From assembly GCA_016432525.1 (NCBI GenBank), contig CP066693.1, positions 849,639-913,638 on the forward strand: a stretch of 64,000 nucleotides of DNA, in the 5' to 3' direction. Shown here in pieces: positions 11,407-59,573 of this stretch. This stretch comes from Candidatus Woesebacteria bacterium. Its GTDB lineage: Bacteria > Patescibacteriota > Microgenomatia > UBA8517. The translations under genes and the position numbers were made by a program. How positions within the stretch are numbered: position 1 is the stretch's first letter; every line of letters begins with the position of its first letter. Under the pieces are notes generated by a model, which worked only from the letters and a program-made list of their open reading frames with translations, was not told where the DNA came from and ran no database searches.

Positions 11407-12588
11407 TTATAAAATTAGAGCTATACCAATCACAAACAATCCCAATCCTGCAAGTACGCTAATTATTGTTGGAGCAGAAAAACCTGCAGCAGGAAGTTTG
11501 CTTGGTTGTGTTGTCACAGTTGGAGCAGAAGTTCCCGTACTCACCGTAAAACTAGCGCTTGCATTACTCGTATTGTTTGAACTATCTGTTGCAGTAATTG
11601 CAATGGTGTGCGATCCATTAGAAAGAGGATTTGTTGGAGTAAACGACCAGTTACCACTACTATTAGCAGTAACTGTTGTATCTATTTGTGCATCTGAATG
11701 AATTACTATTCTAATAGAAGCACCTGCTGCAGCTTTTCCAGAAAAAGTTGGCTTTGAAGTTGTAAGCACTCCCCCCGTTGAAAAGCTTGTTAAGCTTACA
11801 GCAACTGGTGTAGCCGTACTACCAGCCCCTCCAAGCGGTGCTTGAGTTGGTGCAAGTGTTGGTGTTGGACTAGCTGTAGGTGTAGGCGATGGGCTTTGAG
11901 TGGCTAGTGCTAGCTGAGAATTTCCACCTAGATTTGATGTTTCATTCGCCGGAGCTAGCGTTGGTGTTGATGTAGGTGTTGGCGATGGACTTTTGGTTGC
12001 GTTCGGGGTAACTGTCCCTTCTGGAGTAGCAGAAGGTGTAGCACTTGCTTGAGCTATTTCTCCCACATTTATAGTCGCACCATTTTTATTCTGTAAAACA
12101 TTTTGCCCACCTTCTCCAACTGCTACTACAATTGTGTCGTTTGTAAAGTTAACAGCAACCGCTCCATTTGCAAGAGCAGTAAAATTAACTACAGCCAAAT
12201 TTCCTGTTCCGCTTTTGGGAACAACTCCAGGAGGCAAATAAATACTATAAAAAACAGTCCCGTTTGTGTTATTTATAGTTGGTCCAATAACTTGAGGTGA
12301 TACAAAAAATGTACCCAGTGAAACACTATTTGCCTTAAGCTTTGAGGAATCAAAACTTACATAAAGTTCTGTTCCCGCAACTTGATTCGCTCCAGTATCA
12401 ATGTTAATTCCAACATCAAAGCTATCTCCAATTGCAGGCGTCGTACTAGTAGGAGCAAGAGTTAAGCTAGTAGCAGGAGCAGCTTTTTGTTTAAAAAGCT
12501 GCTGTTTTGAAGCAAGAAATATTACGGTAACCAAACCTCCAACCAAAATCAAAATCCCTATTATCGAAAAAATTAGTCTTTTATTCAT
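11407..12588 (-). CDS. cell-surface protein: N-terminal signal-anchor, cohesin-like beta-sandwich domain, Thr/Pro/Ser linker, Ig-like domain, C-terminal LPAAG + hydrophobic tail
   Basis: Paralogous to the 22068..22613 and 13121..14167 N-domains (GTFYxxPxxxGPTIxNTxG...LPPG...SGxGxLAxxNFTA...GEGGQNV). PT-rich linker. C-terminal KLPAAG followed by a hydrophobic segment resembles a sortase signal. Confidence 0.5.
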   Translation of the reverse strand: MNKRLIFSIIGILILVGGLVTVIFLASKQQLFKQKAAPATSLTLAPTSTTPAIGDSFDVGINIDTGANQVAGTELYVSFDSSKLKANSVSLGTFFVSPQVIGPTINNTNGTVFYSIYLPPGVVPKSGTGNLAVVNFTALANGAVAVNFTNDTIVVAVGEGGQNVLQNKNGATINVGEIAQASATPSATPEGTVTPNATKSPSPTPTSTPTLAPANETSNLGGNSQLALATQSPSPTPTASPTPTLAPTQAPLGGAGSTATPVAVSLTSFSTGGVLTTSKPTFSGKAAAGASIRIVIHSDAQIDTTVTANSSGNWSFTPTNPLSNGSHTIAITATDSSNNTSNASASFTVSTGTSAPTVTTQPSKLPAAGFSAPTIISVLAGLGLFVIGIALIL

Positions 12589-13124
12589 AAGTTTTTATTT
12601 ATATTTAATAAAATTGATTTCCCTGTTATATTCAACAAATTCTTCATTTTGGTGACACCATAATAAGAATCAGGTAATATACTCAAGGTAGTAGATTTCG
12701 AAGTAGGATTCAAGACCTGAAAATTCAAATTTGCAATCATAAGCTTCCCAGTCAATTGTGAGTCAAACCCTTGTCCCATTGAAAGAGTAACTATTCCATT
12801 TTTATTATCGATTTCTTTCTCTAAAACGTTAGTGCTTGTCCATATATCTCCAATGTGAACCGAAGTAATCTTTATTGTCTTTGGGTCATATTTTATCTTT
12901 ATACTAAACGCATTCGGAGCATACGTATTAAAATTATCAAATAGTAAACTTACGCTATTTGGCTGTGGTTCAAAATGAACTCCAAGATTTCTAAAGACTC
13001 TGCTCTTTCCTTCCAAAAATGCGATATCAGAAAAATTATTTTTTACCTCATACGACGCTACGAGTAGAATTACTGCAAAAATACCAAAAAAGAAAAAGTA
13101 TATAAATTTATATTTTTTTGTCAT
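12585..13124 (-). CDS. small membrane-anchored protein, possible cohesin-like fold
   Basis: N-terminal TM segment. 4-bp overlaps with both neighbours put it in the operon. No defined motif. Confidence 0.35.
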   Translation of the reverse strand: MTKKYKFIYFFFFGIFAVILLVASYEVKNNFSDIAFLEGKSRVFRNLGVHFEPQPNSVSLLFDNFNTYAPNAFSIKIKYDPKTIKITSVHIGDIWTSTNVLEKEIDNKNGIVTLSMGQGFDSQLTGKLMIANLNFQVLNPTSKSTTLSILPDSYYGVTKMKNLLNITGKSILLNINKNL

Positions 13125-14167
13125 TGGGCAGTTTTACCAAAATTCTCAAACAAAACTATGTAATCCAATAGGTTTACTTTTCCATCTTTATTTATATCTG
13201 CACGTGTATCGAAATTCGAAGTCTTTCCAAAATTCTCAAACAAAACTATGTAATCCAATAGGTTTACTTTTCCATCCCCATTAATATCCCCAGCAAGAGT
13301 TGGTGTTACAGTTGGAGTCGAAGTAGGCGCCCCTGTTGGAACTGGTGTCCCACTAATTGTAGGTGTTGGAGAAGAAACTTCTGTTGCGCAAATTAGTACT
13401 CCGCAAGAGCAAGAATTTGTTCCTTGGTATACACAATTCGGCGCTGGAGTTGCACATACTGCAGGAGTACAAGTCGGGATAATTGTAGGCACTATTGTCG
13501 GAGTAACTGTTGGGCTTGCTGCAGGTGTCGGCGTTGGAATAGCAGTAGCCGTAGCTGTTGGAATCGGGAAAGGAGAAGGAGAAGACATGCTCACTAAAGC
13601 ATTAGATGTAGTAAAACTCAAATCCGTTGGTGTCATATCAACTATCTGTATATTTGAATTACTAATAGAAAAAGTGGCAGGCCCTTGGGATAGACCTGTT
13701 GTAACAGGAGTAATTTTAAAATTTGCTAGCTCAAAAGCTCCAGTTGGAGCATTAGCTACATCATTAGGATCAATTCCAAGAATCGCAACAATCTTTCCAG
13801 TTGCATTCGCATTAGCAAGAGATGTAAGAGAAATAACCTTTTTAAGAGTGGTTGTTGGTATAACTTCAGAGGCTAGATTAACTTTACTGTTATCAAAGTC
13901 AATTTCAACTTTAACAAAACCGATTTTGTAAGTTTTCGCATCCATCATAAGTCTCAATGTTCCATCAGGTGGCAAACTTACACTGGAAGGTAAAAAACTC
14001 AAACTTACGGGGTTTATCAATGCTTTAGATAAATATTTAGCACTTTGAAAAACTTCATACAAGGTAAATGGAAGCGCAACCAAAACAACAATTAATACCA
14101 AAGCTTTTTGAAAACGACTCCCTCTTTTAAGTTCTTTTTTTAGCTCAAAAAATTTACTAAACTTCAT
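13121..14167 (-). CDS. membrane-anchored cohesin-like domain protein with a C-terminal dockerin module
   Basis: N-terminal TM segment, cohesin-like domain and PT/Cys-rich linker. Two C-terminal Ca-binding dockerin repeats (DINGDGKVNLLDYIVLFENFGKT x2), encoded by an 81-bp tandem DNA repeat. Confidence 0.6.
   Translation of the reverse strand: MKFSKFFELKKELKRGSRFQKALVLIVVLVALPFTLYEVFQSAKYLSKALINPVSLSFLPSSVSLPPDGTLRLMMDAKTYKIGFVKVEIDFDNSKVNLASEVIPTTTLKKVISLTSLANANATGKIVAILGIDPNDVANAPTGAFELANFKITPVTTGLSQGPATFSISNSNIQIVDMTPTDLSFTTSNALVSMSSPSPFPIPTATATAIPTPTPAASPTVTPTIVPTIIPTCTPAVCATPAPNCVYQGTNSCSCGVLICATEVSSPTPTISGTPVPTGAPTSTPTVTPTLAGDINGDGKVNLLDYIVLFENFGKTSNFDTRADINKDGKVNLLDYIVLFENFGKTAQ
13135..13300. 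repeat. tandem 81-bp direct repeat (2 copies) encoding the two dockerin segments
   Basis: ccaaaattctcaaacaaaactatgtaatccaataggtttacttttccatc recurs 81 bp apart. Confidence 0.8.
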
Positions 14168-14251
14168 AACTCTTCAAGATTATAATAGCACCTTTCAAAT
14201 ATTGGACACATATCAAAAACCCAATCTGTTATAATATTGCTTGACGATTGT

Positions 14252-14324
14252 GCCTGGATAGCTCAGTGGTAGAGCACTAACTTGGTAAGTTAGGGGTCGA
14301 GAGTTCAATCCTCTCTCCAGGCTC
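14252..14324 (+). tRNA. tRNA-Thr (GGT)
   Basis: GCCTGGATAGCTCAGTGGTAGAGCACTAACTTGGTAAGTTAGGGGTCGAGAGTTCAATCCTCTCTCCAGGCT. Anticodon loop TTGGTAA. Confidence 0.85.
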
Positions 14325-14329
14325 ACAAG

Positions 14330-17300
14330 CTAAAGCAACTTGGATACAACCAAATCCAAATCACTCTGATCAACCTTTCCATCAATATTTAAATCCCCAT
14401 CCATCGGTCCGCGAGTAGTTGTCTGTCCAAAATGAAGTATTACGGTTACATAATCTATTCCATCCACTTTTCCGTCACCATTGGCATCTCCGACAACTGC
14501 AGATGGAGTAGGAGAAGGAGCAGTAACCCCACCCTGACAATTAGAACTTGAAACCCCATTGTCGCTAAAGGCAAAACTTGTTCCCCCAAAAAACTTACAG
14601 GAAACCACTTGATTATTTTTAATTCTTATAACAGCAAGAGCTGCATCTGTTGTAAATGGCCCGACTGTTCGTGAACTTCGAGAATTTTTAAAATTACTTG
14701 TTCCCACCAAAAACCAATCTGTTCCCTGAGATGTCGTCACTTTTACTGAACGGGAATTATCGGAACTGTTAGTTGCGGTAGTTTGGATATTTTGGATGAA
14801 TCCACTTTTTCCAACTCCAATCGGCTCAAGCGTATCGACATAGGTCGCTTCCGTTCCGTTTCGTTCTGCCACGGCAAAATCCTGGCGGAGATTCGTGGTT
14901 TGATTCCTGGCTGGACCTGTTAACCACGCTACGGTTACTTTTGTATTTGGAACTCCTTCCATGGTCAAACGCATTTTTGAACCTTTGGGCGGCCAAGCGT
15001 ACGTCGCATCCTGCATAATACTTCCTTCGTTCATCGTCCAGTCTCCTTGCCATAATCCGGTAGCTGTAAATTGCTGTCCTTTGTGACCAGTGTTTGTAAT
15101 GTAGTATCCAAACGGATCCCAGTCCGCACCACTCGGATCTTTTGCATCTGATAACGCAACCGTCGGATTCGATATTGCCAGTTCGCCCATATTCCGATAT
15201 CCCCATTCAATTCTATGCACCGCTCCATCACGAGGTTTCACAATGAACGTATCAAACAAATACTCCGGTAACTGAACGTTCCATCTTTCCTGATGTGCCA
15301 TGCCAGGAGTAGTGCTCCAGCTTGCTGCCATTTCCGTTGTCGCCACAGCCGAAGGCGTGTTGGGGTCAGGATCAAAGTGAACAAAATCTCCCCAAAACCC
15401 AGGCTCTGATCGATCAATCATAACTTTATTAAGAAGAAGATATGGATACCCTCTCCAATCATACCCATATCGAGGAGTCAAGATTGTTCCATTAGCAAAG
15501 GCAACAATCCCCATACCATCACCAGAAACATGATCTCCAGGATAAAATCCTAGGTGTTTGCTGGACAAAAGTGTCTCCATTCGAGTATCCCAGGATCCGG
15601 GACCACGCAGCATCGCATAACCCCATCCATCAATTTTAAATGACTGATTATCAACGGTTGATCCTGCTTTTCGGCTATTTTCCTGATTAATGGTGTTTTG
15701 GAAATAAGAAATAAGATCCGTGCGGTCAGGGTACATGAGCTTCAGTAAGGCAAAAGCATTCCCATAAGCTCGTGTCAGTTGATTGACCGCTCCTCCTCCA
15801 TTTAACATCGGGAAACTCCCGTCAGAGAATGGAAACTCATTCCACATAACCAAAGATTTGAGAATTAAATCCTTCAAATTGGTAAAGGCCGGAAGTTGAA
15901 TTGTGCTTAAAAACGCCGATGCTTCATTGGCCAGATCCATATAGACACCGGGCCATCCGTAACTTCCAGGTTCATTTGCAAACGATCCGTCCTCGCGAAA
16001 AAGATTTTGAGTGGTGTACAGAGTATTTATCCACTCCGCGGCTTGCTCTTGGACAGCACTGTCGCGGGAACTTGCTGCTGCTGCTAAAAACGTCCAGATG
16101 TCCGTGCCTTCTAGTTCCACCGCTTCCCGCATATGATAGGACACAAACGGTTCACCGGCTAGATGTGTCTTCGTTGCATTCCCAAACATTTTGGTCGGGG
16201 CATAAAAATGGAATCCATTACCACCCAACGCTTGGACATCCATGTGGATATATTCCATATTGGATCCAGTCCCCAGTCGAATCCATTCTCCTGATTCATT
16301 GGCCATATCCATAAATGGGGCAGTTTTAACATTAAAATAAATATTCGCCTGTCCTGGACTATAATTTTGTGCCAGTGTACCAGAAATCCGCAAATCATCC
16401 CGATAACTTAAAAATAGCGGCAGGATGACATTATGCAAGAAACGAAAATGTTCATCGTCCGTCATGGCATTTTGTTGTAACAACTTGACATAAGAAGTGA
16501 GAGCAGTAACTCCGCCAAATTCATACTGCGTCGCAGGAAGAATAAACGGGCGTGCGATGTCCCACCGCGGTACAAAATAATAGGGTACTTCATTGGATAG
16601 AACTTGCATCGCAGACTTAAGCTCAGCAGTTGATGAATTCTGACCGATGCCAGCCAAAACAGTAGAAAGTGGACTGCCAAGGTACGGAGATCTGTTGGTT
16701 CGTGTGGCATCTTCCAAAAGAGTTCCCGGGCGCGTCAGTGCCCAATTTGTTAAATCAAATCCACCTTTGGTCATAATATGAGACGGCGCATGGGTTAACG
16801 CATAGACAAACGCACCCGTGACATCCTGTTGATATATCCCATTTTGGAATCCAAAACTCTGTCTTGTTGGAATTACATTTGTCATATCTGTGGTATCAAC
16901 CGGAGCAAATCCACCAGCGTTGTAGTCTTTTACATAGGCTAATTTTGTGACGGTTTGCATGGGAAGATAGCCATTGGCTGCAGACATCAAATATGGTTTT
17001 GATAAATTAGCAATATCATTTGATTTAAGATCCAACCGAACCAGCTCTGAGTAATTTGCTGGAACCGGTGCGTTTGATTCGACCGTCAGTGAAAATGGAG
17101 TGCTCTGTCCACGAGCAAGTTGCAATGTGGATCCGGTACTCACAGAAGTGACAGAATAGACACTTGTGGTTTTTCCAGACCGAGGCATAACAGATGTGGT
17201 GACGCCAAAACTTACCGTACTGGGAGCTAAATTGGTCCAGGTGCCATTGAACGTAATACGAATCCGTCCGTCTGAGAGCGTTGTGACCTGATGGTTGGAA

Positions 17301-17905
17301 AAATCCAATGCAGGAAATACAGAATTTCCCACAATCGCCCAGGGATTGGCGGGATTTGTTGGAGGAGCTCCTTGGGTAAAATAGGCACTTTTTAAAACAA
17401 CGCCTCCATTATGGAAATCAAATTCGATAGTATGAGATCCGGTTGCCAGATTGACTGTTCCCGGAAGGGACCAGGTGATTGCCGGTGGAGCCCCGCCATA
17501 AAATTGTGGCGTTGAACCCCATTTGTAATCCGGACTATTCGGCCACAGATCTATTTGCGACCATCCAGATGGACTTTGACCATCTACTTTTACATCCATC
17601 AGTCTATGCGCCGCTATCTGATAGTAACTAAAGACGAATGAATAATTTCCTGCGGTTGTCGCTGTGAATGGATACTGAATCGACCCATCTCTATATGAAC
17701 CAACTCCTTTTGGTGGAAATCCGCTTAAAGGACTAGCCTCTGTCGAAAGATATAAATTCCGATTCACAACATTTACAGCCGTTACACCAGCTCCTGCTGG
17801 ATCAAGGTTAAGATTAATCGTTGTAGAAGTTTGAGCGAAAGCTATCTCCTTTGCAGCAAAAAGAATAATGCCACTAACTAAAAAAATAAGTAATTTTTTA
17901 AACAT
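14330..17905 (-). CDS. large (1191 aa) secreted dockerin-bearing protein, probably a carbohydrate-active enzyme (polysaccharide-lyase/heparinase II-III-like fold suspected)
   Basis: Signal peptide and a ~1100-aa body with elevated GC. C-terminal dockerin repeats (DANGDGKVDGIDYVTVILHFGQ, DLNIDGKVDQSDLDLVVSKL). The enzyme family is not confirmed. Confidence 0.5.
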   Translation of the reverse strand: MFKKLLIFLVSGIILFAAKEIAFAQTSTTINLNLDPAGAGVTAVNVVNRNLYLSTEASPLSGFPPKGVGSYRDGSIQYPFTATTAGNYSFVFSYYQIAAHRLMDVKVDGQSPSGWSQIDLWPNSPDYKWGSTPQFYGGAPPAITWSLPGTVNLATGSHTIEFDFHNGGVVLKSAYFTQGAPPTNPANPWAIVGNSVFPALDFSNHQVTTLSDGRIRITFNGTWTNLAPSTVSFGVTTSVMPRSGKTTSVYSVTSVSTGSTLQLARGQSTPFSLTVESNAPVPANYSELVRLDLKSNDIANLSKPYLMSAANGYLPMQTVTKLAYVKDYNAGGFAPVDTTDMTNVIPTRQSFGFQNGIYQQDVTGAFVYALTHAPSHIMTKGGFDLTNWALTRPGTLLEDATRTNRSPYLGSPLSTVLAGIGQNSSTAELKSAMQVLSNEVPYYFVPRWDIARPFILPATQYEFGGVTALTSYVKLLQQNAMTDDEHFRFLHNVILPLFLSYRDDLRISGTLAQNYSPGQANIYFNVKTAPFMDMANESGEWIRLGTGSNMEYIHMDVQALGGNGFHFYAPTKMFGNATKTHLAGEPFVSYHMREAVELEGTDIWTFLAAAASSRDSAVQEQAAEWINTLYTTQNLFREDGSFANEPGSYGWPGVYMDLANEASAFLSTIQLPAFTNLKDLILKSLVMWNEFPFSDGSFPMLNGGGAVNQLTRAYGNAFALLKLMYPDRTDLISYFQNTINQENSRKAGSTVDNQSFKIDGWGYAMLRGPGSWDTRMETLLSSKHLGFYPGDHVSGDGMGIVAFANGTILTPRYGYDWRGYPYLLLNKVMIDRSEPGFWGDFVHFDPDPNTPSAVATTEMAASWSTTPGMAHQERWNVQLPEYLFDTFIVKPRDGAVHRIEWGYRNMGELAISNPTVALSDAKDPSGADWDPFGYYITNTGHKGQQFTATGLWQGDWTMNEGSIMQDATYAWPPKGSKMRLTMEGVPNTKVTVAWLTGPARNQTTNLRQDFAVAERNGTEATYVDTLEPIGVGKSGFIQNIQTTATNSSDNSRSVKVTTSQGTDWFLVGTSNFKNSRSSRTVGPFTTDAALAVIRIKNNQVVSCKFFGGTSFAFSDNGVSSSNCQGGVTAPSPTPSAVVGDANGDGKVDGIDYVTVILHFGQTTTRGPMDGDLNIDGKVDQSDLDLVVSKLL

Positions 17906-19389
17906 TAACTAATTTTACTAATAATTAAGTTTAGATCATTAATGTCAACTTTTCCATCCGCATTTACGTCTCCATCTCTTGCTCCGTTTGTTGTTGTTTG
18001 CCCAAAATGAATTACTACAGTCATATAATCAATTCCATCCACTTTCCCATCTCCATTAACATCGGGGGAAGTAGGAATCGGAGACGAAGTTGGTGCTAAA
18101 GTTGGGCTAGGGGTATTAGTTGCTACATTTCCAAATCTGTCCCAATCCCGCAAACCCAATGCTCTGAATGCATTCCAAAACCCGTCCACACTTGTGGGAG
18201 CTAATGAATTAGGTCCAACATTAACTACTTGCCCAAACCATTGTCTTCCTGATCCATATAGCGGGCTTCCTGAAGGAACTACCATCCTGAGTTTTGAAAA
18301 ATACCCTTCTATGTTTTGATTCGAAAAGATGTCTGATATAGGACTAGAAAAAGCCTGTTTTATGGAAGAAATATTGCTATCTATTTCTGCTTCAGATAAC
18401 CCAAGCTCTTGAGCCTCTTGCCCCCGAGTTAGTGTTATAGTCTGGCTCCCTAATAAAGGCGAGCTCAAAAAGGCATTGTTAGTAATTGTATTAGTTGTAT
18501 TGCCGCTTGTCCAAGCATAACCATTGGGACCAAGAATATTGTTAATCAAATATGTGTTGGCTCCAGCAAGCCAAGGTCCCCATGGGCCCTCGCGACCAGC
18601 CTGTCCTGTCATTTTCCAAAAAAAATTGTTGGCAATCAAATGGTCGGAACCGTCCATAACAAGGCCCCAAAAATGACCTGTAACAAAATTACGGGTGACA
18701 ATACTATCATGTGTATTATGCCAACCGTGAATTCCATATCCTTCACCTCCAATTAGAATGTTATTGTCGACAATGGTATGGGTAGCCATTTGGCCAACGG
18801 TATATCCACCAGAAATATACAGCCCATGGTCAAACCTTCCGTTTCCCATCAAAATAAATCTATTTCCCTGATAAAATGTGTATTCTGCCGAACCCTGACT
18901 AATCCCGTTATAACCAAAAAGTGTATTGTTAACTAGTTGGATCCCATTACTAACTGGACTACCTCCAGTAAAAAACGCGTTTCCAGAATTTGCTTTGCCT
19001 CCAAACCACATACTTTCCAATCTTGTATAACTAGCGACATGAACAGGAGGCGGCAAATCACCATCAGTTGAAAAGATAACTCTCGCGCCTGGCTCAGATT
19101 TGAAAATAGTCATATTTGAAGAACTTGTTCCTGCAGGTCCAAAAGAAACTGAAGAAATCCTATAAATGCCTGAGGCAATCATTACTGTATCTCCGCTTTT
19201 TATGCTGCTTATTGCTTTTGTTATAGTCTTCCAAGCGGAAGTTTGTTGAGTTCCAAGATTTCCATCATTTCCACTATTAGTATTTACATAATAAGTAGAT
19301 GCCAACGCTTTTCTTGGAAATAAAAACAAAAAAAAGAAAACCAGAATCAAAAACAAAAATATTCTTTTCATCTCAAAAACTATAAACAT
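17905..19389 (-). CDS. secreted right-handed parallel beta-helix (pectate-lyase-like) protein with C-terminal dockerin
   Basis: Signal peptide and PbH1-like repeats (NNILIGGEGYGIHGWHNTHDSIVTRNFVTGHFWGLVMDGSDHLIANNFF). Dockerin repeats DVNGDGKVDGIDYMTVVIHFGQ and DVNADGKVDINDLNLIISK. Confidence 0.6.
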   Translation of the reverse strand: MFIVFEMKRIFLFLILVFFFLFLFPRKALASTYYVNTNSGNDGNLGTQQTSAWKTITKAISSIKSGDTVMIASGIYRISSVSFGPAGTSSSNMTIFKSEPGARVIFSTDGDLPPPVHVASYTRLESMWFGGKANSGNAFFTGGSPVSNGIQLVNNTLFGYNGISQGSAEYTFYQGNRFILMGNGRFDHGLYISGGYTVGQMATHTIVDNNILIGGEGYGIHGWHNTHDSIVTRNFVTGHFWGLVMDGSDHLIANNFFWKMTGQAGREGPWGPWLAGANTYLINNILGPNGYAWTSGNTTNTITNNAFLSSPLLGSQTITLTRGQEAQELGLSEAEIDSNISSIKQAFSSPISDIFSNQNIEGYFSKLRMVVPSGSPLYGSGRQWFGQVVNVGPNSLAPTSVDGFWNAFRALGLRDWDRFGNVATNTPSPTLAPTSSPIPTSPDVNGDGKVDGIDYMTVVIHFGQTTTNGARDGDVNADGKVDINDLNLIISKIS

Positions 19390-19429: not shown

Positions 19430-19621
19430 ATGGCCAAAAAAGGAGCTCGAGAAATAGTCGCTTTAGTGTGTAGTGTTTGTAAAAGCCAAAACTACATAAC
19501 TGAGCGAAACAAGGTTAATCTTCAAGTTAAAGCCAAAAAAGGCGAAAAACTTATAGTCAAAAAATATTGCAAAACTTGCAAAAAACACACCGAGCACAAA
19601 GAATCTTCAAAGCTAAAATAA
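19430..19621 (+). CDS. rpmG: 50S ribosomal protein L33
   Basis: MAKKGAREIVALVCSVCKSQNYITERNK...KYCKTCKKHTEHKE resembles the L33 zinc-ribbon form. Confidence 0.8.
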   Translation: MAKKGAREIVALVCSVCKSQNYITERNKVNLQVKAKKGEKLIVKKYCKTCKKHTEHKESSKLK

Positions 19622-19623
19622 GC

Positions 19624-19652
19624 TTGACTTTTTCTTTATCTTATAGTATATT
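19624..19652 (+). promoter_or_regulatory. sigma70-like promoter (TTGACT-N17-TATATT) for the first small Cys-rich gene
   Basis: -35 TTGACT at 19624-19629, 17-bp spacer, -10 TATATT at 19647-19652. Confidence 0.45.
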
Positions 19653-19701
19653 TATGCAGTAGCAAATCGCTACTCTAGTAGCTTTTTTCGTGGAGGAACG
19701 G

Positions 19702-19980
19702 ATGCAAACGCCAGTATCTTTTATCAAAGAAGGTGGCAGCTTGCCGCACTCGTATCATAGGGATCCAATGATTCCCCGCGAGCGAGTGACCGCCGAGATC
19801 ACAAATTGCGCTTGCTGCGGTAAGCCAATCATGATCAAAGAGGGCGAAGATCCCCTCTGTCGGCGTTGCAAGAACCAGGGTGCGATCCCGGTTTTGTGTC
19901 GCATTGCAACCTGCACCACCATCATGTGGCGACGCAAGGACGAGCCTGCACCGGTTTGTTGCAATCACGAAAAAGTTTAG
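19702..19980 (+). CDS. small Cys-rich (zinc-ribbon-like) protein, paralog 1
   Basis: RBS GGAGGA before the ATG at 19702 (the ORF track's 19690 is a GTG). Cys pairs CACCG...CRRC and CRIATC...CC. GC-rich. Own terminator downstream. Confidence 0.5.
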   Translation: MQTPVSFIKEGGSLPHSYHRDPMIPRERVTAEITNCACCGKPIMIKEGEDPLCRRCKNQGAIPVLCRIATCTTIMWRRKDEPAPVCCNHEKV

Positions 19981-19992
19981 GGCCAAAGGGCC

Positions 19993-20040
19993 ATCCCGCA
20001 CTGACTTGGGTCAACCAACGTTAGCGCGGGATCTTTTTTG
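19993..20040 (+). terminator. rho-independent terminator
   Basis: ATCCCGC...GCGGGAT stem followed by TCTTTTTT. Confidence 0.6.
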
Positions 20041-20116
20041 CTCAAAAATTCATTTATTGATATAATATAATTCCTTAAATATTCGAGATGTCTTAGAGTT
20101 CATTGAAAGGAAAAAC

Positions 20117-20401
20117 ATGAGTAAGCATAGTAGGGCTCGGTTGTCGTTGGACAGAGTTGGCAATTACGTTTTTGGCGGAGTCTTAAATCACCCGCCATCG
20201 TATCTTCCCAATTACCAGTGTCTAAGTGACTATTCGCTTAGACAAAAGGTCATCGCCCAAAACGGCGGAAAGCCACCAACTTCCGGCGACATACGTGCAC
20301 TAAAGCCTTCCTATCATATCCAGACATGTAGAGAGCCTGGTTGCACAACTAAAGGCATCACCAAAATTGGTGAACCATTTTTCTGTCGCAGACACAAATA
20401 A
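20117..20401 (+). CDS. small Cys-rich (zinc-ribbon-like) protein, paralog 2
   Basis: RBS AGGAAA. CREPGC...CRRH C-terminal motif. AT-rich promoter-like region with TATAAT at 20061-20071. Own terminator. Confidence 0.5.
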   Translation: MSKHSRARLSLDRVGNYVFGGVLNHPPSYLPNYQCLSDYSLRQKVIAQNGGKPPTSGDIRALKPSYHIQTCREPGCTTKGITKIGEPFFCRRHK

Positions 20402-20422
20402 TAGGAAATAGCATATAGATCA

Positions 20423-20462
20423 ATCCCGCATTCAAAAATCTAACGAATGCGGGATTTTTTTG
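20423..20462 (+). terminator. rho-independent terminator
   Basis: ATCCCGCATTC...GAATGCGGGAT stem followed by TTTTTTT. Confidence 0.65.
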
Positions 20463-20521
20463 CCTATTTAATGTATAATATACTATCGTAACAAGCTTAG
20501 TGTAAAAGACAAGGGGACGAG

Positions 20522-20752
20522 ATGGTGACAAAGATGGTGGTACCTGAAAAAAGGGAAGCTAAAGTTCAATTGGTTACACGCCCACACAACCATGCGCGTC
20601 GGACTCCGGATGCAATGATTGTTCCATGTGCAGGTAAAGGCTGTCACGTTCAATTGATCGTTCCAATTGAACGATATGAAAAGGATAAGCTTTATTACTG
20701 CAGAGGCACTTTTTGTAAATACGAACGAACTACTCAAACAGGAGTAAGATAA
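20522..20752 (+). CDS. small Cys-rich (zinc-ribbon-like) protein, paralog 3
   Basis: RBS AAGGGGA. CAGKGC...CRGTFC motif. Extended -10 TGTATAAT at 20473-20480. Own terminator. Confidence 0.5.
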   Translation: MVTKMVVPEKREAKVQLVTRPHNHARRTPDAMIVPCAGKGCHVQLIVPIERYEKDKLYYCRGTFCKYERTTQTGVR

Positions 20753-20990: not shown

Positions 20991-21947
20991 ATGCCTGAAA
21001 TATTAATTGCTTTAATAAGCGGAATCGTCCTTCTCCTCTTTTCAACCAAAACTCTAATAAAGTTATCTGAAACTCTTTCTTTATCCTTAAAGCTATCACC
21101 TTTGATTATTGGTATGACTGTTGTCGCAATCGGGACTTCCCTGCCTGAATTGTCAGTATCCACAATCGCATCACTCCAGCACGATTATGGTTTGGCAGTC
21201 GGAAATATTATCGGGTCAAATATTGTAAATATTCTACTTGTTTTTTCAGTAGGTATACTCATAGGGAACCTCCGCATAGGGACAACTAAAACCCCAAGAA
21301 ATGCAATAATTTTGCTACTTTTTACTTTCATTTATACCTACACGCATCTATTTACAAATTTCCCTAGACAAACACTGGGGTTATTCTTTATAACCACCTC
21401 ATTTTTGGTTACTTTTCTCGAATATAAATGGGCACTCTTTGGTCGAACTCATGAAGATAATAAAAAATTCAAAAATTCTAAAAGGGTTAGGTTTACATTA
21501 GGAAAACTTATATTACTAATAATGTCTGTAGCCGGAATAATAACAGGCGGATATTTCATCGTAACATCAACCGAGAAACTATCTTTGATTACCGGATTGT
21601 CTACGGGGGTGCTTGGTTTAACTTTAACTGCAGTTGCAACTTCCTTACCGGAACTTCTAACTACCATATTTAGCCAAGAAGAACATGAAGAAAAGATGAC
21701 TATCGGAAACATAATTGGAAGTAATATTTATAATCTTTTTCTAATAGGAGGAATTATCGACTTATTCAGTGGTAATACAAATTTAATTCAAATCAACTGG
21801 TTAACGCTAAACTTAACGACTGTCTTTTTGGTTTTAATAATATTTATATTTCGCGGTAAAACAATTCCTAAATGGATTGGCCTAACATCTCTACTTTTAT
21901 TTTTTATGTATATCCTATACGAGACCAAAAATCTATCTTTGAACTAA
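20991..21947 (+). CDS. Ca2+/cation antiporter (CaCA / YrbG-like)
   Basis: Two alpha-repeats (GTSLPELSVS...GNIIGSNIVN and ATSLPELLTT...GNIIGSNIYN) and about 10 TM segments. Confidence 0.75.
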   Translation: MPEILIALISGIVLLLFSTKTLIKLSETLSLSLKLSPLIIGMTVVAIGTSLPELSVSTIASLQHDYGLAVGNIIGSNIVNILLVFSVGILIGNLRIGTTKTPRNAIILLLFTFIYTYTHLFTNFPRQTLGLFFITTSFLVTFLEYKWALFGRTHEDNKKFKNSKRVRFTLGKLILLIMSVAGIITGGYFIVTSTEKLSLITGLSTGVLGLTLTAVATSLPELLTTIFSQEEHEEKMTIGNIIGSNIYNLFLIGGIIDLFSGNTNLIQINWLTLNLTTVFLVLIIFIFRGKTIPKWIGLTSLLLFFMYILYETKNLSLN

Positions 21948-22067: not shown

Positions 22068-22613
22068 TTACTTCCCAGAAGCCTTACGAACGTTTATGGA
22101 AATAGGAGAAAGAGTGGAGATAACGTTTTGCCCGCCTTCACCAGTTGCAATAACTAAAGTATTCGCCGAATCAAAAGAAACAGGAGTAATTCCTTGAGAG
22201 ATAGCCGTAAAATTAAGAGTTGCCAGAACCCCAGATCCCGAAACAGGCATAGATCCTGGGGGAACAATCAAAGCATAAGAAAGTTTCCCTGAAGTATTAT
22301 CTATAGTAGGCCCTAATATTGTCGGATTTGTATAAAATGTTCCGGCAACAACTCCATTAAGTCTAAGCTTCAAAGGATCATAATTTATATTTAATTGAGC
22401 CCCAGCTGTTTGATTTAAACCTGTCGAAATATAAACTCTCAAAGAAAATTGATCGTTTACTTTAATTTTATTATTAACAAGCAAAAAACTTAGGCTTGTA
22501 GAAGGAGCGGCACTGCTTCTAATATCATATTTTCTATTCACCTGGTTAACTACAAAAAGGCTAACTAAAACTGAAATCAGAAAAAATACCGTTGCCAAAA
22601 ACCATTTAACCAT
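22068..22613 (-). CDS. membrane-anchored single cohesin-like domain protein
   Basis: N-terminal TM segment. Domain paralogous to the N-domains of the 11407 and 13121 genes. Confidence 0.45.
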   Translation of the reverse strand: MVKWFLATVFFLISVLVSLFVVNQVNRKYDIRSSAAPSTSLSFLLVNNKIKVNDQFSLRVYISTGLNQTAGAQLNINYDPLKLRLNGVVAGTFYTNPTILGPTIDNTSGKLSYALIVPPGSMPVSGSGVLATLNFTAISQGITPVSFDSANTLVIATGEGGQNVISTLSPISINVRKASGK

Positions 22614-22671: not shown

Positions 22672-23712
22672 ATGTCTATAAAAAATGAAGCCCAAAAGTT
22701 AACTATCATTATTCCAGCCTATAAAGAGGCTGGCTCAGTTGGCGATACTGTCAAAAGTTTGATTAATCAAACTACACCACCAAAACAGATAATTGTAATT
22801 GATGACTGCTCAACAGATAATACAGCCGAAGTAGCCAAAGCATCAGGCGCAAAAGTCGTGACACCTCCTCATAACACAGGCACTAAAGCCGGAGCTCAAA
22901 ATTATGGTTTATCTTTTGTTGATACAAAGTATGTTATGGCAATTGATGCAGATACAATTATCGCAAAAGATGGAGTCGAAAAGCTTCTTCCCGCTCTTTT
23001 TGAAAAAAATGTTGTGGCAGCTTGTGGATCAGTAATTCCAAGATATCGAAAAACTCTTTGGGAACGTGGGCGATACATTGAATATCTAATGGCTTTTACT
23101 TTTTACAAACCAATTCAAAACTACTTTGAAAAGCCATTAATCTCATCTGGCTGTTTTTCTGTCTACAAAACAAAAATTCTCAAAAAAATGGGTGGTTGGC
23201 AAACTCGCACAATGGCAGAGGATATGGATCTTACCTGGAGTTTTTATCATAAAGGATATAGTGTAAGATTTGTACCAGAAGCAGTAAGCTACCCCATCGA
23301 GCCTCACAATTTTAATTTTATGAAAAAACAGCTCAAAAGATGGTCGCATGGTTTCATGCAAAATGTAATTCTTCATGGAAAAGAAGTAATAGAAATTCCC
23401 TATCTTGCAGGAATTATTACTGTTGGTCTTTGGGATGCATTAATAGCTTCTCTTTCCTACCTTTTTCTAGCCCCTGTTCTTACTTTGGTTTTCAGAAATC
23501 CTATTTTTTTACTTGCGTATATAATTGACGCCCCTGCCATTGCAGCTCCAGTCCTTATAAAAGCCTATGAAAGAAAAGAATTTTGGGAAGCTCTTACAAG
23601 TATTCCATCATTTTTTGTTCTACGTTTTGTTAATTGTTACTTTATATTAGAAGCATTTTTCCAAGAAATAGTATTCAAAAACAGATTAACTGTTTACGAG
23701 AAAGGTCACTAA
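22672..23712 (+). CDS. family-2 glycosyltransferase, processive synthase type (QxxRW)
   Basis: IIIPAYKE...VIDDCSTD...AIDADT and QLKRWSHG (QxxRW), with C-terminal TM helices. Confidence 0.75.
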   Translation: MSIKNEAQKLTIIIPAYKEAGSVGDTVKSLINQTTPPKQIIVIDDCSTDNTAEVAKASGAKVVTPPHNTGTKAGAQNYGLSFVDTKYVMAIDADTIIAKDGVEKLLPALFEKNVVAACGSVIPRYRKTLWERGRYIEYLMAFTFYKPIQNYFEKPLISSGCFSVYKTKILKKMGGWQTRTMAEDMDLTWSFYHKGYSVRFVPEAVSYPIEPHNFNFMKKQLKRWSHGFMQNVILHGKEVIEIPYLAGIITVGLWDALIASLSYLFLAPVLTLVFRNPIFLLAYIIDAPAIAAPVLIKAYERKEFWEALTSIPSFFVLRFVNCYFILEAFFQEIVFKNRLTVYEKGH

Positions 23713-24978: not shown

Positions 24979-25995
24979 TTAACCTCCACAATTAGGACAA
25001 ACATATTTTGTGGATCCATTAACTCCTTGTTTAACCATGTTTGCTCCACAATCAAAACAAACCCTTACTGAACTATTCGCCTCTCTAGTATTTTCCACTT
25101 TTATCTCGTCTCCTGCTCTCAAATCAAAGCTCATTTGATTTTCAGAAATTTTAACTCTTGGTTTTTTTCTACGAATAGGTCTTCTATCATATTCACGAGT
25201 GTTATCAACCACTTGAGATCCATAATCACATCTTCTCCAATACTGGCAAAAATTCCTACAAATAAGGCTATTGGTAGGGTTAGCAACTGGTATTTTACCT
25301 TCGCCAATTCTTTTATTTAAATCTTCAAGATAACCAACTAAGGTTATAAACTCTCGAAGAGTCTGGCCATTCCAGGGCAGTTTTCTTTCCAACTGCATTC
25401 CGCGAGAATTTTTTCCTCCATCCACAGAGACATATAAAAGGTTTGCTCCTACTATATCAAGCTCTCTTCCTTCGGGAGTTAAAGTATTTGAAGCAACTCC
25501 CATATTCCATACCAACAATTTACGGACATCAGAGTTTAAATCAGATTCAGCCTTTAATTGTTTTAAAACAAAATAAGGAACAAATTTAATACAAACCAGC
25601 TGATCCAAAGTATATATTTGTCCAGTTTCCTGATCTTCTTCCTGATAGCTATAAACACAATCTATTCTACTTTTAACTCCCAAATCTAAATCAATAAGTT
25701 CAAGTGGTTTTCCAAATCTTGTTAATTTCTCTTGAAGAATTCTTTTTGATCCTGCAGATTTTATCTCTGCTACTGTATATAAATACCTATCCTCACTTGT
25801 ACTTCGTGAATCAATTCCGATCTTTCGAAAATACCACATCCTATCACAAGCCAGTGGAACAGAAATATCAACTTTTGGATTAAACCCTATTCCGTCACTC
25901 AAAGACTTAACCAAATTGGGTGTAAAATCCCTAACTCCTGGAGTCCTCTCAGAAGCAAACTCAATTTCACCCGAGAATTCAATTCTCTCTGCCAT
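24979..25995 (-). CDS. hypothetical protein with Cys cluster and C-terminal zinc ribbon; possibly a Cas4/RecB-like PD-(D/E)xK nuclease
   Basis: One N-terminal Cys plus a Cx3Cx5C cluster (CRNFCQYWRRC) reminiscent of Cas4/AddB-type Fe-S nucleases. C-terminal CFDCG...CPNCGG ribbon. The catalytic motif is not confidently identified. Confidence 0.3.
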   Translation of the reverse strand: MAERIEFSGEIEFASERTPGVRDFTPNLVKSLSDGIGFNPKVDISVPLACDRMWYFRKIGIDSRSTSEDRYLYTVAEIKSAGSKRILQEKLTRFGKPLELIDLDLGVKSRIDCVYSYQEEDQETGQIYTLDQLVCIKFVPYFVLKQLKAESDLNSDVRKLLVWNMGVASNTLTPEGRELDIVGANLLYVSVDGGKNSRGMQLERKLPWNGQTLREFITLVGYLEDLNKRIGEGKIPVANPTNSLICRNFCQYWRRCDYGSQVVDNTREYDRRPIRRKKPRVKISENQMSFDLRAGDEIKVENTREANSSVRVCFDCGANMVKQGVNGSTKYVCPNCGG

Positions 25996-59156: not shown

Positions 59157-59573
59157 TTATAGGTAGCTGAGCTTGCACGTCGGGCTCGATGGGATGAGAA
59201 ACTCTCCAGAGCATTTAAGCTCATAAACTGGTCCTCCCCATGATACAGTCGCAAGCACAACATCGGTCAGCGCGATAGGCACACTGCAATCGTATGACGA
59301 GTTCACCGGCGACGCTTGATAAGTCAGCTGCTGACCTATCACCACATGTTTCGGCGGATAACTCATGCCATAACGCATGTTCCACTCGCCGTCCTTCGGC
59401 CTATAACCAGGTTCGAGAATATGACAAAAAACCCAACTCCCGTCACTGAGTGCGATCTTAACCTCAGCTCCGTAAGCAGGGCTGTTGTCAGCAGTTTTCT
59501 CTGACGCCTGGGCTCCTGTACCGAACGCCAACACACAGCATAGAGCTACCAAAACCAAAATTCGGGTTTTCAT
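59157..59573 (-). CDS. small secreted protein (138 aa) in a high-GC patch
   Basis: Signal peptide MKTRILVLVALCCVLAFGTGAQA. RBS AGGAGGG. Local GC far above the window average. Confidence 0.45.
   Translation of the reverse strand: MKTRILVLVALCCVLAFGTGAQASEKTADNSPAYGAEVKIALSDGSWVFCHILEPGYRPKDGEWNMRYGMSYPPKHVVIGQQLTYQASPVNSSYDCSVPIALTDVVLATVSWGGPVYELKCSGEFLIPSSPTCKLSYL

What the first reader, a model, noticed from the sequence alone, without database searches (positions are those of the whole stretch)
11407..19389. Cellulosome-like cell-surface module: dockerin-bearing secreted enzymes next to membrane-anchored cohesin-like proteins
Two secreted proteins carry C-terminal type-I dockerin repeats with the canonical Ca-binding loop (DxNxDGKVD/NxxD). 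One is a 1191-aa enzyme-like protein and one a beta-helix/pectate-lyase-like protein. The adjacent operon (14167 to 11407) encodes three membrane-anchored proteins whose N-domains are mutually paralogous, and a fourth paralog sits at 22068. One of these also has a dockerin, and another ends in an Ig-like domain plus LPAAG sorting-type tail. Established knowledge: dockerin-cohesin pairs assemble extracellular multi-enzyme complexes. Inference: the paralogous domains are cohesin-like receptors and this is a miniature surface scaffold that displays polysaccharide-active enzymes, which is notable in a reduced genome.
Basis: partly seen in the sequence, partly recalled or inferred. Interest (0 to 1): 0.65.

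Follow-up and report, generated by a model that had tools for sequence, protein, structure and literature searches.

The report
Cohesin-dockerin enzyme display in Woesebacteria
A tiny-genome Woesebacteria (CPR) bacterium encodes four membrane-anchored cohesin proteins and two secreted, dockerin-tagged polysaccharide-lyase-like enzymes, a real but non-cellulolytic relative of the cellulosome of a kind already noted in neighbouring CPR lineages.

Summary
Three proteins (348, 1191 and 494 aa) end in type-I dockerins, and all six Ca-binding loops are intact. All four paralogous N-domains are cohesins. Three pass Pfam's threshold. The fourth (348 aa) is supported by a clade-specific HMM and by a predicted fold whose top 48 PDB matches are all cohesins.

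- Each protein carries only one cohesin, and no cellulases are present, so this is not a cellulosome in the strict sense.
- The three-gene operon (cohesin+dockerin adaptor, small cohesin, cohesin with LPxxG-like tail) recurs in at least five other loci. Cargo there includes phosphatases, beta-helix proteins and a neighbouring GH39.
- The two enzymes form a pair that also sits, without dockerins, in an exopolysaccharide-type gene cluster of a 60%-GC genome. They were probably acquired horizontally and then given dockerins, which points to a bacterial exopolysaccharide as substrate.
- The 1191-aa enzyme belongs to a very rare family with no Pfam or PDB sequence match. Its predicted fold resembles PL17/PL40/PL12 lyases.

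Cohesin-dockerin sets have already been reported in other Microgenomates. This is therefore a new member of a known kind. Which cohesin binds which dockerin, and the substrate, remain inferred.

The parts
11407..12588 (-). p393, the anchoring cohesin protein. It has an N-terminal membrane anchor (res 5-27), a cohesin (res 36-178, window 12055-12483), a Pro/Thr linker, a Big_13 Ig-like domain (res 274-350, window 11539-11769) and a C-terminal KLPAAG plus hydrophobic tail (res 364-393, window 11410-11499).
   Evidence: Pfam Cohesin E 5e-9 and Big_13 E 2.4e-14. The own cohesin HMM gives E 2e-53. The tail motif [LIM]PxxG..PT plus a TM segment is conserved in homologues P0156-P0161. LPXTG_anchor is sub-threshold.
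12585..13124 (-). p179, a small membrane-anchored single-cohesin protein (cohesin about res 69-158, window 12651-12920). It overlaps both neighbouring genes by 4 nt.
   Evidence: Pfam Cohesin 28.3 bits, E 2.3e-6. An HMM trained without it gives E 1e-13. A small cohesin gene sits in the same position in L005, L010, L014, L016 and L018.
13121..14167 (-). p348, the adaptor-type protein. It has an N-terminal anchor (res 22-44), a divergent cohesin (res 55-177, window 13637-14005), a Pro/Thr linker holding a 6-Cys segment (res 233-260, window 13388-13471), and a symmetric dockerin (res 292-346, window 13130-13294).
   Evidence: Dockerin_1 E 4.4e-10. The two repeats are identical at 21 of 22 positions, with Leu-Leu at positions 10-11. 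The cohesin is supported by HMM E 2e-5 and by the AF2 model with Foldseek, where the top 48 hits are cohesins. Proteins with the same architecture are P0054, P0063, P0074 and P0118 and the L005 cohesin+dockerin proteins.
14252..14324 (+). tRNA-Thr(GGT) on the opposite strand. It separates the enzyme pair from the cohesin operon and is a boundary, not a component.
   Evidence: ARAGORN and Rfam.
14330..17905 (-). p1191, a secreted dockerin-tagged enzyme. It has a signal peptide (res 1-24, AFA|Q), two N-terminal beta-sandwich domains (res 28-310, window 16976-17824), a helical toroid-like region plus beta-sandwich core (res about 360-1115, window 14561-16828), and an asymmetric dockerin (res 1139-1191, window 14333-14491).
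   Evidence: Dockerin_1 E 7.5e-8, with no other Pfam or NCBIfam family. There is no PDB sequence match even with profiles. The family has only about 40 core relatives among 1.84 billion representatives. The AF2 model has pLDDT 69. Foldseek finds PL17 alginate lyases and a PL40 ulvan lyase at E 1.2e-9 and heparinase III at about 1e-5.
17905..19389 (-). p494, a secreted dockerin-tagged right-handed beta-helix enzyme. It has a signal peptide (ALA|S, res about 7-30), a beta-helix body (res 31-422, window 18124-19299) and a dockerin (res 443-493, window 17911-18063). Its stop codon overlaps the p1191 start codon by 1 nt.
   Evidence: Dockerin_1 E 2.3e-9. Chondroitinas_B scores 27.1 bits against a cut-off of 24, and DUF1565 22.5 against 20.3. 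A precomputed Pel9A-like_beta_helix hit is on record. The body is 55% identical over 415 aa to a dockerin-less beta-helix protein three genes from the p1191 homologue in L008.
22068..22613 (-). p181, the fourth cohesin: a membrane-anchored single-cohesin protein with no linker (cohesin res 35-178, window 22080-22511).
   Evidence: Pfam Cohesin 48.2 bits, E 1.7e-12. It is 39% identical to p393. PDB phmmer hits are dominated by cellulosomal cohesins.

Best explanation
This is a non-cellulosomal cohesin-dockerin system that displays enzymes on the cell surface of a Candidatus Woesebacteria (CPR/Patescibacteria) bacterium.

Four single-cohesin proteins are held at the cell surface by N-terminal membrane anchors. 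One of them, p393, stands on a long Pro/Thr stalk with an Ig-like domain and has a conserved LPxxG-type C-terminal sorting-like signal. Another, p348, also carries a symmetric Leu-Leu-type dockerin, so it can plug into another cohesin as an adaptor.

Two Sec-secreted enzymes are translationally coupled. One is a PL6/PL9-like beta-helix protein. The other is a large protein with a PL17/PL40/PL12-like toroid plus beta-sandwich fold. Both end in a second, asymmetric dockerin type. In the presence of Ca2+ these dockerins tether the enzymes to the cohesins, keeping the enzymes and their products at the cell surface of an organism that depends on scavenging.

The enzyme pair was most likely acquired horizontally from a high-GC bacterium, where the same two genes lie without dockerins in an exopolysaccharide-type gene cluster. 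Its substrate is therefore probably an (acidic) bacterial exopolysaccharide or capsule, not cellulose.

Shown: domain identities, folds, gene order and conservation of the module. Inferred: that these cohesins bind these dockerins, which binds which, the anchoring chemistry, lyase activity and the substrate.
For: - Domains are above curated thresholds. All six Ca loops are intact and two dockerin types are present.
- The fourth cohesin is confirmed by an independent HMM and by fold.
- The enzymes have signal peptides with AxA sites, while the cohesin proteins have 20-23-residue hydrophobic anchors.
- Gene overlaps of 1 and 4 nt indicate two operons.
- The triad [cohesin(s)+LL-type dockerin] then [small cohesin] then [cohesin-linker-LPxxG tail] is conserved in L014, L010, L016/L018 and L005. 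Dockerin-tagged cargo lies next to the cohesins in L003 and L005. In L016/L018 the first gene is a two-cohesin + CBM96 + dockerin scaffoldin.
- 84 proteins sharing the enzymes' dockerin subtype carry varied hydrolase and lyase domains.
- p1191 has a lyase-like fold.
- The p494/p1191 pair lies dockerin-less in L008 (60% GC) among GT4, DegT and PMT_2 genes, and the P0003 homologue lies near a PL8 lyase.
- Other p1191 relatives include a Planctomycetota protein.
- p1191 has the third-highest GC3 among the window's genes.
- The source organism is named by NCBI records as Candidatus Woesebacteria.
Against: - No binding data exist and no complex prediction was possible.
- The p348 cohesin is below Pfam's detection.
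- The p1191 model is only moderately confident (pLDDT 69). It is weakest (residues 776-871) over the most conserved motif block. Global TM-scores to the lyases are low (0.2-0.3). No sequence-level link to any PL family was found.
- Catalytic residues were not mapped for either enzyme.
- The LPxxG tail is below the LPXTG model's cut-off, lacks a basic tail in p393, and no sortase gene lies in the window.
- The compositional signal for horizontal transfer is modest (GC3 z = 1.6), and the direction of transfer is inferred.
- The taxonomy of the related loci was not established.
Confidence: 0.7

Rival explanations
1. The tethering is as described, but the enzymes work on the organism's own surface polysaccharide. 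They would trim or release self-made EPS or capsule, as AlgL, PelA, PslG and BcsZ do in other EPS systems, rather than forage on foreign polymers.
For: In L008 the homologous pair lies inside a biosynthesis-type cluster with two GT4 genes, a DegT aminotransferase and PMT_2. The window itself encodes a processive-type GT2 next to p181 and a Wzy_C/O-antigen-ligase-like protein.
Against: The window genes are not embedded in a biosynthetic cluster. Cargo at related loci (metallophosphatases, a phosphoesterase, GH39) looks like nutrient scavenging. CPR bacteria depend on external substrates (established knowledge).
Confidence: 0.15
2. The cohesin and dockerin modules mainly mediate adhesion. This could be cell-cell attachment of the episymbiont to a host, or self-assembly of a surface layer through the cohesin+dockerin protein p348. 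Enzyme display would be secondary.
For: p348 carries both a cohesin and a symmetric dockerin, so it could polymerise or bridge. Membrane-anchored single cohesins on stalks resemble adhesins. The Foldseek list for the p348 cohesin also includes an adhesin CLIPPER domain at rank 49.
Against: Across loci, dockerins sit overwhelmingly on enzymes. No host-side partner is known.
Confidence: 0.08
3. The dockerins and cohesins are neighbours but do not pair. The dockerins would serve as Ca-binding stabilising or wall-binding modules, and the cohesins would bind something else.
For: Many non-cellulosomal dockerin-like and cohesin-like modules have no known partner (established knowledge: Peer et al. 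2009, recalled, not read here). No binding test was possible.
Against: Cohesins and dockerins are adjacent in at least six independent loci, and the LL-type dockerin is conserved in the triad's first gene.
Confidence: 0.05
4. It is a classical cellulosome for plant cell-wall (cellulose or hemicellulose) degradation.
For: Cohesin and Dockerin_1 domains are present. Earlier CPR papers use the word cellulosome for such gene sets.
Against: There are no GH5/9/48 or other cellulases. The window has no multi-cohesin scaffoldin and no scaffoldin with a CBM. The cargo enzymes are lyase-like, and in relatives are phosphatases.
Confidence: 0.02

Closest known systems
Ruminococcus flavefaciens cellulosome parts ScaC (single cohesin + dockerin adaptor) and ScaE (single cohesin + LPXTG sortase signal)
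   Same: p348 has ScaC's architecture, one cohesin plus one dockerin. p393 has ScaE's, one cohesin plus a linker and a C-terminal LPxxG/hydrophobic signal. Dockerin-tagged enzymes are encoded nearby. Cohesins of this organism are among the structural matches.
   Different: There is no multi-cohesin ScaA/ScaB in the window and there are no cellulases. The cohesin proteins also have N-terminal membrane anchors. The sorting motif is degenerate (LPAAG) and sub-threshold. Sequence identity to any solved cohesin is below 20%.
Cohesin/dockerin ('cellulosome') gene sets reported in other CPR: Ca. Shapirobacterales and Ca. Roizmanbacterium (Microgenomates), and Saccharibacteria T. rhizospherense
   Same: Same superphylum, and for Microgenomates the same supergroup. 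These are small genomes with cohesin-domain and dockerin-domain proteins. In Shapirobacterales the proteins were detected by proteomics. A 'two-subunit cellulosome' was reported in Saccharibacteria.
   Different: Those reports are annotation-level and interpret the system as cellulose degradation. I found no description of the triad operon, the two dockerin types, the non-cellulase cargo or the dockerin-tagged EPS-cluster enzyme pair. No paper in the library links dockerin with Woesebacteria. The Roizmanbacterium paper itself was not readable here.
Non-cellulosomal cohesin-dockerin systems (Clostridium perfringens glycosidase/toxin complexes; Archaeoglobus fulgidus cohesin+dockerin protein)
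   Same: Cohesin-dockerin pairing is used outside cellulose degradation, to assemble glycan-degrading enzymes. Cohesin and dockerin also occur in one polypeptide. The A. fulgidus cohesin 2xdh is among the fold matches.
   Different: Different lineage, anchoring and cargo. The comparison with C. perfringens rests on recalled knowledge and was not tested here.
PL17 alginate lyases, PL40 ulvan lyase and PL12 heparinase III (heparinase II/III-type fold)
   Same: p1191's predicted helical toroid followed by a beta-sandwich aligns over about 820-890 columns at E 1.2e-9 (PL17 8bdd, PL40 9vtk) and about 1e-5 (PL12 4mmi, 4fnv).
   Different: No sequence similarity is detectable to any Pfam family or PDB chain, even with family profiles. 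p1191 has two extra N-terminal beta-sandwich domains and a dockerin. Catalytic residues are unmapped.

Membership tests
Cohesin domain (Pfam PF00963) | Sequence match above the curated gathering score | tested here: met
   p393 scores 36.9, p179 28.3 and p181 48.2 bits against a cut-off of 24.1. p348's N-domain is NOT detected by Pfam. It is supported only by a clade HMM (19.2 bits, E 2e-5).
Cohesin domain (Pfam PF00963) | Jelly-roll beta-sandwich fold of solved cohesins | tested here: met
   Tested for the doubtful member p348. In the AF2 model, residues 55-177 have pLDDT about 72-88, and the top 48 Foldseek PDB hits are cohesins with TM up to 0.68 and rmsd 2.7-3 A. The other three were not modelled.
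Cohesin domain (Pfam PF00963) | Ca-dependent high-affinity binding of a dockerin | not testable with these tools
   Needs ITC, ELISA or native PAGE, or multimer structure prediction.
Type I dockerin (Pfam PF00404) | Sequence match above the gathering score | tested here: met
   p348 scores 40.0, p1191 32.9 and p494 37.7 bits against a cut-off of 22.9.
Type I dockerin (Pfam PF00404) | Two tandem segments of about 22 residues, each with an EF-hand-like loop bearing Asp/Asn at positions 1, 3, 5, 9 and 12 | tested here: met
   All six loops read D-x-N-x-D-G-K-V-D/N-x-x-D, spaced 30-31 residues apart.
Cellulosome sensu stricto | Scaffoldin with several cohesins and a cellulose-binding CBM | tested here: not met
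   Each window protein has one cohesin and no CBM. A relative (L018, 647 aa) has two cohesins plus CBM96 plus a dockerin.
Cellulosome sensu stricto | Dockerin-bearing cellulases or hemicellulases (for example GH5, GH9, GH48) | tested here: not met
   The only dockerin-bearing enzymes are a beta-helix PL6/PL9-like protein and a PL17/PL12-like-fold protein.
Sortase substrate (LPXTG cell-wall anchor, TIGR01167) | LPXTG motif, hydrophobic segment and basic tail, scoring above the model's cut-off | tested here: not met
   p393 has KLPAAG plus a 24-residue hydrophobic stretch ending ...ALIL with no basic tail. TIGR01167 scores 7.4 bits against a cut-off of 15.9, and homologues score 11.2-12.7. The motif [LIM]PxxG..PT is nevertheless conserved in 7 of 7 family members.
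Sortase substrate (LPXTG cell-wall anchor, TIGR01167) | A sortase encoded in the genome | tested here: inconclusive
   No real ORF in the 64-kb window carries a TLxTC motif, and no Sortase Pfam hit appears in the related loci. The rest of the roughly 0.9-Mb genome could not be searched.
Heparinase II/III-like / PL17 / PL12 / PL40 polysaccharide lyases | Helical (alpha/alpha)n toroid followed by an antiparallel beta-sandwich | tested here: met
   Foldseek probability is 1.00, with E 1.2e-9 for PL17 and PL40 and about 1e-5 for PL12. However, the model pLDDT is 69 and global TM is 0.2-0.3.
Heparinase II/III-like / PL17 / PL12 / PL40 polysaccharide lyases | Sequence membership (Pfam Hepar_II_III or Alginate_lyase models, or similarity to a characterised member) | tested here: not met
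   No Pfam hit at E<=10 for p1191 or for P0002 and P0003, and none at E<=0.01 for eight more relatives. No PDB chain at E<=10 with profile A2 or A8.
Heparinase II/III-like / PL17 / PL12 / PL40 polysaccharide lyases | Catalytic Tyr/His(/Asn) constellation in the toroid-sandwich cleft | not tested
   The tools return no residue-level structural alignment. Family-invariant Y649, H843, D845, H897, Y813 and R812 are candidates only.
Right-handed beta-helix lyases (PL6 chondroitinase B / PL9 Pel9A-like) | Sequence match above the gathering score | tested here: met
   Chondroitinas_B scores 27.1 bits against 24, but covers only profile positions 5-112 of 426. DUF1565 scores 22.5 against 20.3. Pel9A-like is listed in precomputed hits but was not reproduced in my scan of p494.
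Right-handed beta-helix lyases (PL6 chondroitinase B / PL9 Pel9A-like) | Catalytic Lys/Arg base and Ca site | not tested
   No model or residue alignment was made for p494.

The most novel reading that the evidence does not exclude
The module may be an episymbiont's tool against its host's envelope. Two depolymerases would have been captured from the exopolysaccharide gene cluster of a high-GC (Planctomycetota-like) bacterium, fitted with dockerins and mounted on membrane-anchored cohesins. They would cut through or feed on that specific host EPS or capsule, so their specificity would point to the host. p1191 would also found a new polysaccharide lyase family.
Probability: 0.2. Interest if true: 0.65.

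Novelty: new member of a known kind. Interest (0 to 1): 0.4.

Why it matters
CPR bacteria have tiny genomes and live off other cells, and how they obtain substrates at their surface is poorly known. This locus shows a compact, conserved cohesin-dockerin operon in Woesebacteria and its relatives. The operon serves as a general socket for secreted enzymes such as lyases and phosphatases, and horizontally acquired enzymes are plugged in by adding a dockerin.

It offers three concrete things:
- A small, experimentally tractable 4 x 3 cohesin-dockerin interaction set with two dockerin types.
- A candidate new polysaccharide lyase family that is very rare and has no sequence link to known families.
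- A possible handle on which exopolysaccharide, and so which neighbour or host, the organism exploits.

It also cautions against annotating such CPR gene sets as cellulose-degrading cellulosomes.

Tried and rejected
- GTDB species-representative scans found no confirmed relative, either for the anchor-cohesin alignment (A4 was too divergent to make patterns; A5 gave none) or for the p1191 family. Taxonomic spread could therefore not be measured.
- Two word-index homologue searches were nearly empty: 3 proteins for p1191 and 2 for p181.
- p1191 has no sequence link to solved structures as a single sequence (only its dockerin matches), as the full family profile or as the conserved-block profile.
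It was rebuilt as A7.
- The promoter/terminator scan showed no excess over shuffles and says nothing about operon boundaries.
- The sortase search by TLxTC motif hit only spurious ORFs.
- I considered and dropped the idea that 14.2-20.9 kb is a tRNA-bounded genomic island. rpmG lies inside it, and only p1191 is compositionally elevated, and modestly (GC3 z 1.6).
- I considered and dropped a type IV pilin-like leader for the cohesin proteins. The N-termini have no G|FTLxE-type motif.
- Housekeeping genes of the window have almost no counterparts in the fetched loci, so relatedness of those loci to Woesebacteria could not be quantified.

Full report
**Observation**

- p393: 11407-12588
- p179: 12585-13124
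- p348: 13121-14167
- p1191: 14330-17905
- p494: 17905-19389
- p181: 22068-22613

p348, p179 and p393 overlap by 4 nt each, and p494 and p1191 overlap by 1 nt. These are therefore two tightly packed transcription units. They are separated by 162 nt that hold a plus-strand tRNA-Thr(GGT) at 14252-14324.

Pfam places Dockerin_1 above its gathering score at the C-termini of p348, p1191 and p494, and Cohesin above its gathering score in p393, p179 and p181. p393 also has a Big_13 Ig-like domain.

A six-frame motif scan finds exactly six dockerin Ca-binding loops in the 64-kb window, two per dockerin protein.

**The fourth cohesin**

p348's N-domain gets no Pfam hit, even when scanned alone at E<=10. 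Three lines of evidence make it a divergent cohesin:
- I built a cohesin HMM from 14 clade members, excluding p348 and p179. Against all 383 window ORFs it recovers p181 and p393 (E about 1e-53), p179 (1e-13) and p348 residues 55-169 (2e-5). The next ORF is at E 0.36.
- An AF2 model of p348 gives a beta-sandwich at residues 55-177 with pLDDT mostly in the 70s-80s. The alignment was made of window paralogues and homologues.
- The top 48 Foldseek hits of that model in the PDB are all cohesins. The best is C. acetobutylicum CohA2 (6kgf_C) at E 3.6e-7, TM 0.66, rmsd 2.7 A. The list also includes C. thermocellum, A. cellulolyticus and R. flavefaciens cohesins and the non-cellulosomal A. fulgidus cohesin.

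The window holds no other cohesin or dockerin.

**Topology**

p1191 and p494 start with ordinary Sec signal peptides (…AFA|QTS and …ALA|STY). The four cohesin proteins start with a short basic stretch and a 19-23-residue hydrophobic helix that looks like a membrane anchor.

p393 ends KLPAAG-FSAPT followed by a hydrophobic stretch. Its homologues P0156-P0161 all share the layout N-anchor / 'AAPATS' / cohesin / Pro-Thr linker / (Big_13) / [LIM]P-x-x-G-x-x-x-PT plus TM. The tail is therefore a conserved signal.

That signal scores below NCBIfam's LPXTG_anchor cut-off (7.4-12.7 bits against 15.9). p393 lacks a basic tail, and no sortase gene is in the window. Sortase anchoring is plausible but unproven.

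**Two dockerin types**

p348's two repeats are identical at 21 of 22 positions, with Leu-Leu at the recognition positions 10-11. p1191 and p494 share another type. They are 63-71% identical to each other over the dockerin, with Gly-Ile in repeat 1, Gln-Ser or Ile-Asn in repeat 2, and only 9 of 21 positions identical between their own repeats.

From established knowledge of type-I dockerins, positions 10, 11, 17, 18 and 22 set specificity, and symmetric repeats allow dual binding. This suggests two cohesin specificities, with p348 acting as an adaptor. That is inference.

**Source and comparative evidence**

Identical proteins are recorded by NCBI as Candidatus Woesebacteria bacterium. One copy lies on a 916,571-bp contig.

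The cohesin family is sparse in the databases, but the neighbourhoods of its members are informative:
- **L005** carries Phosphoesterase+Doc, Beta_helix+Doc, Coh+Doc (287 aa), Pel9A-like+Doc, Coh+Doc (350 aa), GH39, Coh (174 aa), Coh with tail (290 aa) and Coh (205 aa). The order matches the window.
- **L003** carries Coh, Metallophos+Doc, a small Coh-like protein, Coh with tail, and a second metallophosphatase-like protein with a dockerin.
- **L010** has an upstream gene ending in an LL-type dockerin very like p348's, followed by Coh (184 aa) and then Coh+Big_13+tail.
- **L014** is 81% identical to p393 and shows the same triad, including p348's Cys-rich linker motif.
- **L016 and L018** have the same triad, but the first gene is a 647-aa protein. 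It has a p348-type cohesin, CBM96 (E 1.7e-27), a second cohesin and an LL-type dockerin.

The three-gene unit [cohesin(s)+dockerin], [small cohesin], [stalked cohesin with LPxxG tail] is therefore conserved, and dockerin-tagged cargo varies around it.

Eighty-four proteins whose dockerins most resemble p1191's include 56 that match Pfam Dockerin_1. Between them they carry Beta_helix, GH16, GH26, GH39, GDSL lipase, phytase, phosphoesterase, polysaccharide lyase and peptidase M64 domains. This fits a general socket for secreted enzymes, not a cellulose machine.

**The enzymes**

*p494.* The body is a right-handed beta-helix. Chondroitinas_B (PL6) scores 27.1 bits against 24 but covers only the first quarter of the profile. 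DUF1565 is above threshold. There is weak PDB similarity to lacto-N-biosidase and chondroitinase B N-termini. A Pel9A-like hit is on record among precomputed hits.

*p1191.* Apart from its dockerin it matches nothing by sequence:
- No Pfam or NCBIfam family.
- No PDB chain with the single sequence, a 14-member profile or a conserved-block profile.
- An exhaustive HMMER search of 1.84 billion representatives finds only about 40 core relatives, many of them fragments. The other roughly 400 hits are dockerin-only.
- Two GTDB scans found none.

Its AF2 model has pLDDT 69 and shows two N-terminal beta-sandwiches, a helical region (about 360-745) and a beta-rich C-terminal part. Foldseek aligns 820-890 columns to PL17 alginate lyases and a PL40 ulvan lyase at E 1.2e-9, and to heparinase III/HepC (PL12) at about 1e-5. 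The N-terminal domains match sugar-binding and Ig domains of GH2 enzymes.

Three caveats apply:
- Global TM is low.
- The model is least confident (residues 776-871) over the family's most conserved block (PGDHVSGD…TPRYGY).
- I could not map catalytic residues.

**Origin of the enzyme pair**

The closest dockerin-less homologue of p1191 is P0002 (46-49% identity). It lies in L008 (60% GC) between a DegT aminotransferase and two GT4 glycosyltransferases, with PMT_2 upstream. Three genes away is a beta-helix protein that is 55% identical to p494's body over 415 residues and also lacks a dockerin.

Another homologue, P0003, comes from a 64%-GC contig and has a C-terminal SHD1 domain. It lies near a PL8 lyase and an apiosidase-like protein. 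A further relative is from Planctomycetota.

Within the window, p1191 has the third-highest GC3 (0.36 against a mean of 0.26, z 1.6).

The simplest reading is that the two enzymes are a functional pair associated with an exopolysaccharide locus, moved into the CPR lineage, and acquired Pro/Thr linkers and dockerins there. One other low-GC-style homologue, P0006, also has a dockerin. The direction of transfer and the substrate are inferred.

**Comparison with what is known**

In architecture, p348 corresponds to single-cohesin adaptors such as R. flavefaciens ScaC, and p393 to the sortase-anchored single-cohesin ScaE (recalled knowledge; their cohesins are among the fold hits).

The system fails the defining tests of a cellulosome. 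The window has no multi-cohesin CBM scaffoldin and no cellulases.

Non-cellulosomal cohesin-dockerin systems are known. Within CPR, cohesin and dockerin proteins have been reported and detected by proteomics in Ca. Shapirobacterales. That paper also cites a 'cellulosome' in Ca. Roizmanbacterium. A 'two-subunit cellulosome' was reported in a Saccharibacterium. I found no paper linking dockerins with Woesebacteria.

The finding is therefore a new member of a known kind. The new details are the conserved triad, the two dockerin types, the non-cellulase cargo, the dockerin-tagged horizontally acquired pair, and a probable new lyase family.

**Verdict**

Domain identities are close to certain. Cohesin-dockerin tethering of the two enzymes is likely (about 0.7). 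An exopolysaccharide substrate is plausible (about 0.4). Pairing specificity and the anchoring chemistry are open. Interest is moderate, at 0.4.

Noticed in passing
window 13388-13471 (p348 residues 233-260); L014 3-308: All six cysteines of p348 lie in a 28-residue stretch of its Pro/Thr linker (CTPAVCATPAPNCVYQGTNSCSCGVLIC). The other three cohesin proteins have no cysteine at all. The motif is conserved in the L014 orthologue, which suggests a small disulfide-knotted module of unknown role.
   Followed up: partly
window 19432-20750 (+): rpmG (ribosomal protein L33) at 19432-19620 is followed by three small Cys-rich ORFs (19690-19980, 20117-20401, about 20523-20750). Each has its own TATAAT-like box and a GC-rich hairpin with a T-run. 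No family was assigned.
   Followed up: no
window 56063-58537 (-): An 824-aa secreted protein has a very Cys/Gly/Thr-rich N-terminal half and no Pfam match. Its GC is 0.42, above the window background. It has no dockerin.
   Followed up: no
window 59157-59573 (-) and 38063-38665 (-): These are the two strongest compositional outliers among the window's genes (GC 0.51 and 0.48, GC3 z about 4). The first is a small secreted protein. They may be recent acquisitions.
   Followed up: no
window 20991-21947 (+) and 22672-23712 (+): A Na/Ca-exchanger-family transporter and a processive-type GT2 glycosyltransferase (with weak chitin-synthase similarity) flank the fourth cohesin gene, p181. The Ca link to dockerins may be coincidence. 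The GT2 bears on the rival reading that the enzymes process the organism's own EPS.
   Followed up: partly
L018 5445-7388 (also L016 5454-7394): In a related locus the first gene of the triad is a 647-aa scaffoldin-like protein with a p348-type cohesin, CBM96, a second cohesin and an LL-type dockerin. This is closer to a classical scaffoldin than anything in the window.
   Followed up: partly
p1191 residues 776-871 (window about 15293-15580): The AF2 model is least confident exactly over the family's most conserved sequence block (PGDHVSGD...TPRYGY...HFD). This is unexplained. It may be a metal or active-site region that needs a ligand or a deeper alignment.
   Followed up: no
window 24979-25995 (-): A 338-aa protein with a CX2CX5C cluster and a C-terminal zinc-ribbon motif (CFDCG...CPNCGG) has no Pfam hit. 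It may be a Cas4/RecB-like nuclease.
   Followed up: no
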